Source: Sphaerodactylus townsendi
Taxonomy: Eukaryota
Assembly (NCBI RefSeq): GCF_021028975.2
Contig: NC_059436.1
Location: 36,022,001 to 36,086,000 of the forward strand
Direction: 5' to 3'
Length of the DNA stretch: 64,000 nt
The position numbers and the translations under genes were made by a program. Below, in pieces: positions 4,101 to 7,100 of this stretch. Below the pieces are notes generated by a model that saw only the letters and a list, made by a program, of their open reading frames with translations, did not search any database and was not told where the DNA came from. Positions within the stretch are counted from its first letter, which is position 1, and each line of letters begins with the position of its first letter.

Positions 4101-7100
4101 CACCAAGGAGGAAATTTGGGGACAGCATGGAAGTTTGGGGAAAGTAGCAAATAGATCACACAGCAAGTGAAGCCATTTTGAAAACGTTACAGGTAAATCA
4201 TCATTTTAAAAGGCGATTCACTGAAAATGTTTTGAGGCTGACAATAAAAACATTTTAAGAACCAAAAGAGGAAAAACAATGAAGACTCTATGAAGGAAAT
4301 AGTTGATTTCCTACCTCACAACATTTTAAAAGTTTCATGCAGAAAGGAGCTACTTTAAACATAAACAACATTCAGGATCAACAACCTGATGAATATCCAG
4401 ATTAAAAACTTGTTTTGTTACAGTTTCATCAGAAGACTTCCCCATCTTGTCCAGGTAAGATCACTATAAAACATATTCTAGAAAATGTCCTGTTCCCATA
4501 ATTAATTGCAGACAATAGGAAAAGTAGCTGTTCCAGTACCAGCGTTGCATTCAAGAACAAAACAGCTATTTGTTTAAATAAATACCAGCCACATCAATAT
4601 AATCATAGTGGTGTCAATAGGATTTCACTTAAATGAGAAGCAACTGTGATTTATCGTTTAAAAACATTTTCACCACACCTGTGTGAATGCTCAAATGGAT
4701 TTTATCATGTTTACTGTAATAGTTATTGTGAACATAACAAGAGATTGCTTTGTAGAATTCAACTGCATATATTTCTTATAATAGTCTGAGCATATAATGA
4801 GGTTGTATAATTGAAGTAATGCTGGTGTGGATCCATCTTTGGGATGTAGAAGGTTCTATGGCACACAGCTGTCAATGAGTCAGCAACCATATTTAATTAG
4901 ATAGTCCACAGTGACAGATATAAAAATCACTCACCATGCTGAAAATGGCATACTTCACGTATAATCAAGGCTGCCAGCTCTTTGTTCTTGAATACCAGAC
5001 TGCAAAATATGTATGCTTTTTTTATTCAAAGGTATGTATAATAATAATGAAATATAATGGGAACAAGAAATTTTCTGCCACATGTATTGTCGAAGGCTTT
5101 CACGGCCGGAATCACTGGGGTGCTGTGTGGTTTCCGGGCTGTATGGCCGTGTTCTAGCAGCATTCTCTCCTGACGTTTCACCTGCATCTGTGGCTGGCAT
5201 CTTCAGATGATCCTCTGAAGATGCCAGCCACAGATGCAGGTGAAACGTCAGGAGAGAATGCTGCTAGAACACGGCCATACAGCCCGGAAACCACACAGCA
5301 CCCCAGTTTCTGCTACATGTTTTGCAATGATCAGGATGGAGCAGACTTCTGAGGAAATGGTAACAAAACAAGTTTTTTTCTGGAAAATCATCAGGTTGTT
5401 GATCCCAGACTTTGTTTACATTTAACAGAATAGAAAGAACTTGGCTTTTATCGTGGACTGTATCTATGTTGATGACTGAGTGTATGGATAGAGGACGTAA
5501 GACCTTGGCTCTGATTTCTAAGTGTGTGTATTTATGCATGAGTATTGCTTTTTTTAAACTGTTACCCAGTGTGATGTTTGTTCGTTTCATGTGATTTCTT
5601 ATGTGATTTTGCCAAGTTCTTTTTGGACAGCTGGGGCTATGAAAATGGATTTAAAAGAATGCAGGCAACAACTGCTAAAGTCACAGCAAGTGCAAGGGAA
5701 GACCAGGATGATTTTCTGAAGGGGTAGGTGGGTTTCATTTTAAAACAAAAGCTCAGTGGCATCTTAAATAACTAACAACATTTATTTCAATATGAACTTC
5801 CACAAGCTGTTCAGTTCACTTCACACACTTCAGATGTGTGAAGTGGAGATCACACTGGGAATTTTTTTCCTGGGGAAGATTATGGGGTTGGGGGTAAGAC
5901 AGGGGGCGGGAGGGGGGGGTTGTGCAAATTCTGTCATGACTCAGGTACAAATTTGTGGTGTAAGGGAAAAGGGAAGAGTTGACAAAGAAAACTTAAGCTT
6001 GAAACCCGTTATTACCTGCCAGAGAGCCACCTTTTTAAGAAGAGTTTGGATTTATATCCCCCCTTTCTCTCCCGCAGGAAACTCAAAGGGGCTGACAATC
6101 TCCTTGCCCTTCCCCCCTCACAACAAACACCCTGTGAGGTAGGTGGGGCTGAGAGAGCTCATAGAAGCTGTGACTAGCCCAAGGTCACCCAGCTGGCGTG
6201 TGTGGGAGTGTACAGGCTAACCTGAATTCCTCAGATAAGCCTCTACAGCTCAGGTGGCAGAGCTGAGAATCAAACCCGGTTCCTCCAGATTAGATACATG
6301 AGCTCTTAACCTCCTACGCCACTGCTGCTACTAGCATGGATTATTTAAATGTGTCCAGATGTGCTTGACCGTAGAATTGTAGCTGGCATGAACTTAAATA
6401 ATAATGTAGAGCACAGTGATATAATACTGCATTCACAAACCGATCTGGATAATGAGTGGGACTTGCAGGATTCCTCCCAAAGATATGCTACTTTTCCTTT
6501 CCAGCTCTGGGACCTGCGGCAGACCAGAAGTAGCATCCGTGAGTTCCGGGGCCACTTCCAAACCACAGCATCTTGCATCTTCCTCCCAAAATGCCTCACC
6601 ACCTTCCCTACCATTGCCACTTCATCACACGATGGCACGATAAAATTGTGGAGCCAGGATACTGGAGGTATAATAAATCTCAGTTGCCAGGGAGCAACCG
6701 AGTGTAAAAATTATCTTCCTGACTCAGGTCAGAGTCCATTTTGTTCAGCATTTTGATTACAACATGAGATAGCCAGGTGACTCTCAGAAGACAAGTAGGA
6801 TGTGATGGCACCAGCCCTCTCCCACAGGATCTCCTCAGCACTTGGTGTTCAGAGATGTACTGCCTCTGATCATGGAGATTCCATTTAGTTTTCATACCTT
6901 TTGATAAACTTATTCCTTTTTCAAGGAATTTGTCTAGCTCTTTATAAAGAGCATCTAGGCTAGCAGCAGGAGTGTGAAAATGGCCCTGGAAAAAGCTAAG
7001 TAGGCCCTGTGCTGCTACATTCCAGTGCTGTAGGAGTCACTCAGGTCAACATGTGCATTGGCTCACCCAGGGCTTCCTCCTGAAAACTGGCATCAGTGTG

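What the first reader, a model, noticed from the sequence alone, without database searches (positions are those of the whole stretch)
5114..5307. 194-bp palindrome carrying back-to-back hammerhead ribozyme cores inside a WDR31 intron
Seen in the sequence: two perfect 94-bp inverted arms with a single mismatch at the centre (tgatcc rather than ggatcc). On the + strand, which is the WDR31 sense strand, 5211-5253 reads TCCT-CTGAAGA-T-GCC(agccacagatgca)GGT-GAAA-CG-TC|AGGA. That is stem I, the CUGANGA core, stem II, GAAA, a self-complementary ACGU replacing helix III, and a GUC cleavage site. The minus strand has the mirror core, but the central mismatch weakens its stem I (TCAT vs AGGA). Established: Penelope-like retroelements carry minimal type I hammerheads thought to cleave as dimers through a palindromic helix III. 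Inference: this is a young non-autonomous Penelope derivative. In the host pre-mRNA the upstream antisense arm would lock the ribozyme in about 94 bp of dsRNA, making it a self-silenced ribozyme and a likely ADAR/Dicer substrate.
Basis: partly seen in the sequence, partly recalled or inferred. Interest (0 to 1): 0.75.

Follow-up and report, generated by a model that had tools for sequence, protein, structure and literature searches.

The report
Penelope retroelement stub forming intronic hairpin
This 194-base mirror-image stretch in a gecko WDR31 intron is the short end-piece of a very abundant Penelope-like jumping gene, inserted head to head with a copy of itself, and its hammerhead ribozyme letters are likely inactive passengers, so it is an ordinary repeat copy and not a regulatory switch.

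Summary
The palindrome (5114-5307, one mismatched pair) and both hammerhead motifs are real, inside WDR31 intron 3165-6504. The insert is larger than reported. It has a 31-nt tail on one side (5083-5113), a 14-bp target duplication (13/14), and an empty paralogous site nearby. It matches the pLTR/ORF start of Anolis Poseidon_Ac at 100 of 119 bases (counted by eye). The tail ends at ORF +118, where that element starts reverse transcription. In four runs, 26,482-58,652 contigs each lie on the stretch, and the family's 3' ends pile up at 5082/5083. Head-to-head inverted pLTR, one-sided tail and target duplication are the published Penelope insertion architecture. The ribozyme is probably inert: there is no same-strand partner, a G-U pair replaces G10.1-C11.1, and it is buried in a -212 kcal/mol hairpin. 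Contig ends suggest the insert is shared with two related organisms whose flanks differ by 2.6%, so it is only moderately young. Verdict: an ordinary member of a known kind. The remaining interest is that such stubs may record how Penelope elements build inverted junctions.

The parts
5072..5085 (.). Left target-site duplication, 14 bp; its last 3 bases overlap the element's 3' end
   Evidence: 13 of 14 identical to 5307-5320; single copy at the empty paralogous site 4471-4484(-)
5083..5113 (-). 31-nt Penelope 'tail', present on one arm only; ends at ORF +118
   Evidence: Outside the palindrome; 27 of 28 identical to the end of the second stub at 16502-16529; family contigs leave the stretch at 5082/5083 (table 7); Poseidon_Ac starts reverse transcription at +111 to +118
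5114..5210 (-). Long (tail-bearing) arm, sense on the minus strand
   Evidence: homology to the Poseidon_Ac template printed, counted by eye
5083..5200 (-). First 39 codons of a Penelope ORF (+1 to +118); no RT or endonuclease part
   Evidence: frame 4955..5263, minus; 25 of 39 residues and 98 of 117 bases identical to the Poseidon_Ac ORF start (by eye)
5168..5210 (-). Mirror minimal hammerhead motif, stem I reduced to 1 bp by the central mismatch
5208..5213 (.). Head-to-head junction centred on GATC (5209-5212, ORF -12 to -9); T5208 departs from the family's majority G
   Evidence: G in 65, 65, 55 and 17% of depth in four runs; shown joints cluster at 5209
5211..5307 (+). Short arm, sense on the WDR31 strand, ending at ORF +86/+87
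5211..5253 (+). Minimal type I hammerhead motif; ATG (5221-5223) at the start of stem II, predicted cut after 5249, 26 nt past the start codon; G-U at 10.1-11.1
   Evidence: same layout as Poseidon_Ac; C at 5241 in 66-71% of family depth
5307..5320 (.). Right target-site duplication, 14 bp
4471..4484 (-). Empty paralogous site in an older inverted duplication (about 3647-4576 against 4962-5615)
   Evidence: Flanks align on both sides and the 14-mer occurs once, 10 of 14 identical to the right copy
3165..6504 (+). Host intron of WDR31 (GT-AG, between codons 260 and 261 of P0001)
16491..16648 (.). Second, independent stub of a sister family: same tail end, about 36-nt one-sided tail, inverted arms cut short before the hammerhead, 14-bp target duplication (13/14)

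Best explanation
The palindrome is a roughly 225-bp insertion of the pLTR/ORF-start end of a Poseidon-type Penelope-like retrotransposon, lying head to head with a copy of itself between 14-bp target duplications; it was likely made in one target-primed reverse transcription event, and its hammerhead motifs are likely inert passengers. Shown here: the anatomy, the target duplication and empty site, the very large family, and homology to Poseidon_Ac. Shown by others for Poseidon_Ac in vitro: the protein nicks and extends both DNA strands, prefers AT-rich DNA, and starts copying at two internal RNA sites separated by the tail. Inferred: the element RNA begins about 12-16 nt upstream of the ATG, so copying from +118 yields only about 130 nt. 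A second priming from the opposite nick, 14 bp away, started near +87. The two cDNAs ran to the RNA's 5' end and joined through the self-complementary GATC. I favour this two-primer route about 55:45 over fold-back of a single cDNA. In WDR31 pre-mRNA the insert would form a 94-bp hairpin that is removed with the intron.
For: 100 of 119 bases match the Poseidon_Ac ORF start without gaps (by eye). The ATG in stem II and the cut 26 nt after the start codon are as. The arms end at +118 and +86/87, which fits the +111 to +118 start site and a 30-40 bp tail. The target duplication is 13/14 and the paralogous site is empty. A second stub at 16491-16648 has the same tail end, a one-sided tail and a 14-bp duplication. 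26,482-58,652 contigs per run were laid, with summed depth about 1e6 over the element against about 15-30 on unique flank in X3-X5 (not a copy number). Family contigs leave at 5082/5083 into AT-rich sequence (458+348, 407+333 and 378+345 contigs in X3-X5). Of 15 shown joints, 6 end exactly at 5209 and 11 at 5209-5215 (562 hidden); of 12 shown in table 5c, 9 end at 5209 (586 hidden), mostly with 1-7 extra letters. Loose ends before 5209 resemble the upstream pLTR of Poseidon_Ac, so longer family copies exist. Published architecture: inverted pLTR, one-sided tail, target duplication. Inert ribozyme; family majority has C at 5241 where this copy has T.
Against: No full-length RT plus GIY-YIG partner was found: 0 of 6 candidates scored, and 0 of 12 hits carried such a domain. 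No genome was held. The position of the second Poseidon_Ac start site is in a figure I could not see, so the match at +87 rests on the tail length alone. The 5' end as a transcription start rests on loose-end consensus lines with agreement of only 0.42-0.45 in X3 and X5, and D. virilis Penelope is reported to use a TATA-less internal promoter. Both arms share the minority T at +21, which fits one template (fold-back) better than two independent RNAs. A second junction class 3 nt shorter (35, 26, 54 and 2 contigs, table 4) looks like a fold-back product. The joint tables show only a small, tool-chosen part and have short sides (18-33 letters).
Confidence: 0.8

Rival explanations
1. Same Penelope stub, but made by fold-back: one cDNA primed at +118 reached the RNA's 5' end, folded back on a short self-complementary stretch there, copied itself and was resolved about 31 nt short of its start.
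For: Both arms carry the minority T at +21 (5241 and mirror 5180; majority C in 66-71% of depth). A junction class 3 nt shorter leaves a 5-bp stem with a 3-nt loop (table 4), and this copy's centre is one short duplication away from it. Arkhipova et al. 2013 read junction palindromes as self-priming (passage).
Against: A centre that is perfectly symmetric about GATC needs a loop of 0-2 nt, which fits two annealed ends better. G at 5208 is the majority in X3-X5, though contigs laid on the mirror arm can also give it. The second stub has two separately truncated arms with about 27 nt between them. Poseidon_Ac extends both strands in vitro.
Confidence: 0.35
2. The whole palindrome is a distinct non-autonomous family that is transcribed and mobilised as a unit.
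For: Short copies are very abundant, and G at 5208 points to perfect-centre copies. Non-autonomous Penelope-like families are reported elsewhere.
Against: Inverted partners vary in length and junction (tables 4, 5, 5c). A 94-bp hairpin would hide the protein-binding and start region, which lies in the first 172 nt of the ORF in Poseidon_Ac. Family contigs continue into an upstream pLTR (table 7).
Confidence: 0.1
3. The host has recruited the hairpin or the ribozyme to regulate WDR31 (splicing, editing, small RNA), and selection keeps the arms perfect.
For: Intronic, sense-strand, extremely stable hairpin. Likely present in three related organisms.
Against: At 2.6% flank divergence the expected number of arm mismatches is about 2.5; P(0 of 94) is 0.09 and P(<=1 of 97) is 0.28, so no selection is needed. 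The core carries G-U at 10.1-11.1. Rfam miRNA hits are all below their gathering scores.
Confidence: 0.04
4. The palindrome is an assembly or library artefact (fold-back chimera).
For: Perfect arms can arise from chimeric reads or polishing; no contig laid spans the whole stretch.
Against: Target duplication and empty paralogous site. Unique-flank contigs from three runs enter the element at both ends in the expected orientation (table 8). Polishing could still have hidden a few arm differences.
Confidence: 0.02

Closest known systems
Poseidon_Ac (PAc), Penelope/Poseidon-clade element of Anolis carolinensis (Frangieh et al. 2024, PMC11167929; parts 1-3 of 4 of the text and the text layer of supplements 1-3 seen, figures not seen)
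   Same: 84% identity over ORF +1 to +119 (by eye); ATG at the start of stem II; predicted cut 26 nt after the start codon; tail ending at +118; AT-rich targets in the family.
   Different: This copy keeps only about 130 nt plus an inverted copy, with no RT or endonuclease. It has G-U for G-C at the base of stem II and a 4-bp stem I on the + arm. It comes from a gecko-type genome.
Typical insertion unit of endonuclease-bearing Penelope-like elements: inverted 5' pLTR, 30-40 bp one-sided tail, target duplication (Arkhipova et al. 2013, PMC3846280; Craig et al. 2021, PMC8557442; passages seen)
   Same: Head-to-head inverted copy, palindromic junction, tail on one arm, target duplication.
   Different: Reduced to the two arms with no ORF body; duplication of 14 bp against 8-10 bp in the Adineta examples read.
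Minimal hammerheads (min-HHR) of metazoan Penelope-like elements (Cervera and De la Pena 2014, PMC4209133; parts 1-2 of 4 seen)
   Same: Conserved core, extra nucleotide before stem II, palindromic 15.2-16.2, short helix I. Pairs on opposite strands 100-700 bp apart were already reported in Schistosoma.
   Different: G10.1-C11.1 is G-U here, helix II has 5 pairs with an A-A mismatch, and the two motifs abut directly.
Non-LTR retrozymes of animals (Cervera and De la Pena 2020, PMC7229834, passages; Li et al. bioRxiv 10.64898/2026.07.22.740005, part 1 of 5 and passages)
   Same: Short, non-coding, type I hammerhead, related to Penelope pLTRs.
   Different: Retrozymes are head-to-tail tandem repeats that can give circular RNA; this is a single head-to-head pair with cores on opposite strands.

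Membership tests
Penelope/Poseidon-clade PLE insertion | Sequence homology to a known pLTR/ORF start | tested here: met
   19 mismatches in 119 bases, no gaps, against the Poseidon_Ac template printed; counted by eye, not by a program
Penelope/Poseidon-clade PLE insertion | Inverted 5' copy adjacent head to head | tested here: met
Penelope/Poseidon-clade PLE insertion | 30-40 bp tail on one end only | tested here: met
   31 nt, 5083-5113; family end at 5082/5083
Penelope/Poseidon-clade PLE insertion | Target-site duplication | tested here: met
   13 of 14; single copy at the empty paralogous site
Penelope/Poseidon-clade PLE insertion | AT-rich target | tested here: inconclusive
   Family loose ends are AT-rich; local flanks are 62-68% AT against 61.5% for 4001-6000
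Autonomous Penelope-like element | Single ORF with RT and C-terminal GIY-YIG endonuclease | tested here: not met
   Only 39 codons present; no partner found. The copy is a fragment of the family, not an autonomous element
Minimal type I hammerhead (min-HHR) | Core CUGANGA, GAAA, UH and an extra nucleotide before stem II | tested here: met
Minimal type I hammerhead (min-HHR) | Palindromic 15.2-16.2 region | tested here: met
   ACGU at 5245-5248
Minimal type I hammerhead (min-HHR) | Conserved G10.1-C11.1 pair | tested here: not met
   G-U in both arms; C in 66-71% of family depth
Minimal type I hammerhead (min-HHR) | Helix I of 4-5 bp | tested here: inconclusive
   4 bp on the + arm, 1 bp on the - arm
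Minimal type I hammerhead (min-HHR) | Second same-strand motif nearby for dimer cleavage | tested here: not met
   No second + strand motif in 64 kb; the partner is on the other strand
Minimal type I hammerhead (min-HHR) | Self-cleavage | not testable with these tools
   Folding only: hammerhead fold has 0.1% of the ensemble in the isolated + arm and below 1e-30 per pair in context
Non-LTR retrozyme | Head-to-tail tandem units, each with a hammerhead | tested here: not met
   No direct repeat of the arm in 3000-8000 or in the window
Non-LTR retrozyme | Circular RNA | not testable with these tools
Known microRNA precursor family | Rfam gathering score reached | tested here: not met
   0 of 17 miRNA-family hits reach the score
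Miniature inverted-repeat DNA transposon (definition recalled) | Terminal inverted repeats flush with the target duplication on both sides | tested here: not met
   A 31-nt tail separates the left arm from the element's left end

The most novel reading that the evidence does not exclude
These stubs are complete promoter-to-start-site products of the Penelope cycle. Because reverse transcription starts only about 130 nt from the RNA's 5' end, a dimeric Penelope protein primes from both nicks, one strand at +118 and the other near +87, and joins the two cDNAs at GATC. That would explain in one step the head-to-head inversion, the one-sided tail and the flood of short hammerhead-bearing palindromes in lizard genomes, with no separate non-autonomous family. 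The many genomic junctions would then be a ready test set for the unsolved second half of Penelope transposition.
Probability: 0.35. Interest if true: 0.5.

Novelty: new member of a known kind. Interest (0 to 1): 0.2.

Why it matters
As a single locus it matters little: it is one copy of a very large repeat family in a published insertion form, and it shows that long hammerhead-centred hairpins in reptile introns need no functional reading. As a class, such stubs line up with the in vitro start sites of Poseidon_Ac. They could be used to decide between double priming and fold-back, a step that Craig et al. 2021 list as still undefined (passage).

Tried and rejected
No whole genome was held, so copies could not be counted or aligned and core-versus-flank conservation was not tested. 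hides 33 difference rows; it shows only that C>T and G>A dominate (21 of 31 places in X6), which fits CpG decay (9 CpGs in the element). Hammerhead-core pattern scans of viral and metagenome contigs found 0 matches. The word-index protein search with the ORF start gave 0 of 6 candidates. The HMMER search gave 12 hits, none with RT or GIY-YIG in Pfam. No RNA holder was listed, which says nothing on expression, editing or cleavage. Run X6 has gaps in flank cover, so presence in organism D is undetermined. Rfam gave no hammerhead family on the region or on the right arm alone. The isolated arms fold no better than shuffles (z from -0.57 to 0.66), and the co-fold of two + arms did not give the hammerhead dimer as its best structure. 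One short motif look-up for the exon start landed at the wrong place and was discarded. Earlier-findings look-ups by sequence, by eight words and by place were blank. Paper searches for Penelope+hairpin+palindromic+lizard+retrotransposon and Sphaerodactylus+Penelope gave 0 papers; searches listed no paper devoted to such gecko stubs (listings only). PMC6050309 and PMC8969392 (passages) added nothing specific. Repbase and Dfam could not be searched, so the family may already be catalogued. Rejected: pre-miRNA, inverted-repeat DNA transposon, retrozyme, assembly artefact.

Full report
1. Observation. Window 5114-5307 equals its reverse complement except at 5208/5213, and pairing ends at those limits. 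It folds at -212.6 kcal/mol, z -32.9, with 0 of 200 shuffles as stable. A both-strand scan of the window found 2 motifs with stems of at least 3 bp: this one and a weak one at 36560(-). The mirror motif keeps only 1 bp of stem I. Rfam gave 17 miRNA-family hits on the hairpin, all below gathering score, and no hammerhead family. The exon at 6505-6666 is 100% identical over 54 aa to S. townsendi WDR31. Aligning that protein places the locus in a GT-AG intron, 3165-6504, on the + strand. The host is therefore a dwarf gecko of that kind.

2. True limits. Left of the palindrome lie 31 more element bases, 5083-5113, shared (27 of 28) with a second element at 16502. The insert is flanked by 5072-5085 and 5307-5320, identical at 13 of 14 positions (chance about 4e-7 for fixed positions). 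An older inverted duplication in the intron provides a paralogous site: both flanks align and the 14-mer occurs once, at 4471-4484(-). The event added about 225 bp plus the duplication.

3. Identity. Frangieh et al. 2024 (PMC11167929; figures and the .gbk supplement not seen) print the Poseidon_Ac template. Counted by eye, the minus arm differs from it at 19 of 119 bases from the ATG on, without gaps, and shares 25 of 39 residues. In Poseidon_Ac the ORF starts at stem II, the cut lies 26 nt after the start codon, reverse transcription starts at +111 to +118, and the 30-40 bp tail lies between two start sites. Here the ATG is at 5221(+) and 5200(-), the cut would follow 5249 (26 nt after the start codon), the long arm ends at +118 and the short arm at +86/87. 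Arkhipova et al. 2013 and Craig et al. 2021 (passages) describe an inverted 5' pLTR, junction palindromes, a one-sided tail and a target duplication as the typical unit. Cervera and De la Pena 2014 report minimal hammerheads in pLTRs, mostly as single motifs, some as opposite-strand pairs, and similar motifs in reptiles. No autonomous partner was found here: 0 of 6 candidates and 0 of 12 hits with RT or GIY-YIG.

4. The family (four runs, contigs only, 85% likeness). 53,048, 47,575, 58,652 and 26,482 contigs were laid. Summed depth is about 1e6 over the element against about 15-30 on unique flank in X3-X5; this is no copy number, but the family is very large. Among 24 shown loose-end rows (1,534 hidden), the largest in X3-X5 lie at 5082/5083 and run into AT-rich sequence, the family's 3' end. 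Others lie before 5209 with a consensus resembling the upstream pLTR of Poseidon_Ac, including a TATA-like run about 30 nt up (agreement 0.42-0.45 in X3 and X5). Of 15 shown joints (562 hidden), 6 end at 5209 and 11 at 5209-5215, coming from many different places in the other arm. Of 12 shown in table 5c (586 hidden), 9 end at 5209, mostly with 1-7 extra letters. So sense units tend to begin 12-16 nt before the ATG and the inverted partner varies in length. The letters just there fit a vertebrate initiator pattern (pattern recalled, from no call); a transcription start is my inference. Against it, D. virilis Penelope is reported to have a TATA-less internal promoter (PMC2377424, passages), while Adineta pLTRs have a putative TATA plus initiator. 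At 5208 the letter G makes up 65, 65, 55 and 17% of depth, so the central mismatch is likely a departure of this copy. Contigs laid on the mirror arm can also give G, so perfect centres cannot be counted. A 3-nt-shorter centre occurs in 35, 26, 54 and 2 contigs. At 5241 and its mirror 5180 the majority (66-71%) has the canonical C, and this copy has T in both arms.

5. Age. Unique-flank contigs of organisms B (X4) and C (X5) enter the element at both ends by 22-23 element-specific letters, and X3 by 23-25. This is below the tool's 31-letter rule for bridging, so shared presence is likely rather than shown. Flanks differ from the window at 27 of 1,024 (X4), 27 of 1,025 (X5) and 3 of 1,028 (X3) places. 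At that depth about 2.5 arm mismatches are expected; P(0 of 94) is 0.09 and P(<=1 of 97) is 0.28. The perfect arms need no selection, and polishing could have hidden differences.

6. The ribozyme. In the isolated + arm the hammerhead fold holds 0.1% of the ensemble; in context its pairs have probabilities below 1e-30 and every transcript prefix tested (5 of 5) already forms the long hairpin. There is no same-strand partner. A Schistosoma minimal motif showed no cleavage as a monomer and low cleavage as a dimer. The Poseidon_Ac motif cut only with protein, was not needed for insertion, and left no matching read ends in RNA-seq. The motif here is best read as a passenger. The hairpin could be an ADAR or Dicer substrate (established for long dsRNA in general, recalled), but this was not testable.

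7. Mechanism. Shown: anatomy, duplication, empty site, family ends. Shown by others in vitro: both strands nicked and extended, two internal start sites, a predicted dimer. Inferred: nicks 14 bp apart primed at +118 and near +87, both cDNAs reached the RNA's 5' end and joined at GATC. The second stub, with two separately truncated arms, the same tail end and a 14-bp duplication, fits this. Fold-back of one cDNA is a close rival: it explains the shared minority T and the shorter junction class. I put the two at about 55:45. A mobile palindrome family (0.1), host recruitment (0.04) and artefact (0.02) are less likely.

8. Comparison and novelty. It works like, and on five of six tested structural points belongs with, Poseidon-type Penelope insertions as a non-coding fragment (four met, AT-rich target inconclusive; the RT/endonuclease ORF is absent). 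It fails the tandem test for retrozymes and the G10.1-C11.1 and partner tests for an active minimal hammerhead. Earlier notes of this scan describe similar stubs in other genomes (AI notes, not independent evidence). Seven paper searches showed no paper devoted to gecko stubs, but Repbase, Dfam and most subscription journals were not searched. Verdict: new member of a known kind, interest 0.2. The most novel open reading, that such stubs are full promoter-to-start-site products of double priming, has probability about 0.35 and would deserve about 0.5.

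Noticed in passing
window 16491-16648: Second Penelope stub of a sister family: same tail end, about 36-nt one-sided tail, inverted arms cut before the hammerhead, about 27 nt of other sequence between them, 14-bp target duplication with one mismatch.
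   Followed up: yes
window 3647-4576 against 4962-5615: Older inverted duplication (about 75-87% identity in blocks, with large indels) in the same WDR31 intron; it could also pair in the pre-mRNA and it supplies the empty site.
   Followed up: partly
P0015: An annotated Anolis caspase-14 isoform X3 begins with about 40 residues matching the Penelope ORF start, perhaps a chimeric transcript driven from a pLTR or an annotation artefact; a Sphaerodactylus 'caskin-1-like' model (P0009) ends in the same stub.
   Followed up: no
P0011, P0012, P0017, P0020: By my reading, 4 of 12 protein hits from other sources translate through an antisense arm into the sense stub, and most of the 12 matches stop at residue 38-40, the tail end. 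Head-to-head stubs with the same end seem to occur in other organisms.
   Followed up: partly
loose ends at 5212 and 5253/5254: At least one sister family shares the hammerhead region (5212-5254) but differs upstream and downstream; the downstream consensus resembles the stub at 16590-16634.
   Followed up: partly
window 38809-38928, 41184-41293, 42461-42609, 46451-46539, 49077-49236, 62538-62683, 17315-17390: Seven older, 74-88% palindromic stretches, several related to each other; probably other hairpin-type repeats.
   Followed up: no
window 5631-5723: An AG...GT-bounded stretch that looks like an exon inside the WDR31 intron; not matched by P0001.
   Followed up: no
window 8601-10713 and 55376-59639: Two decayed LINE-like reverse transcriptase regions seen in the ORF list; type assignment recalled, not tested.
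   Followed up: no
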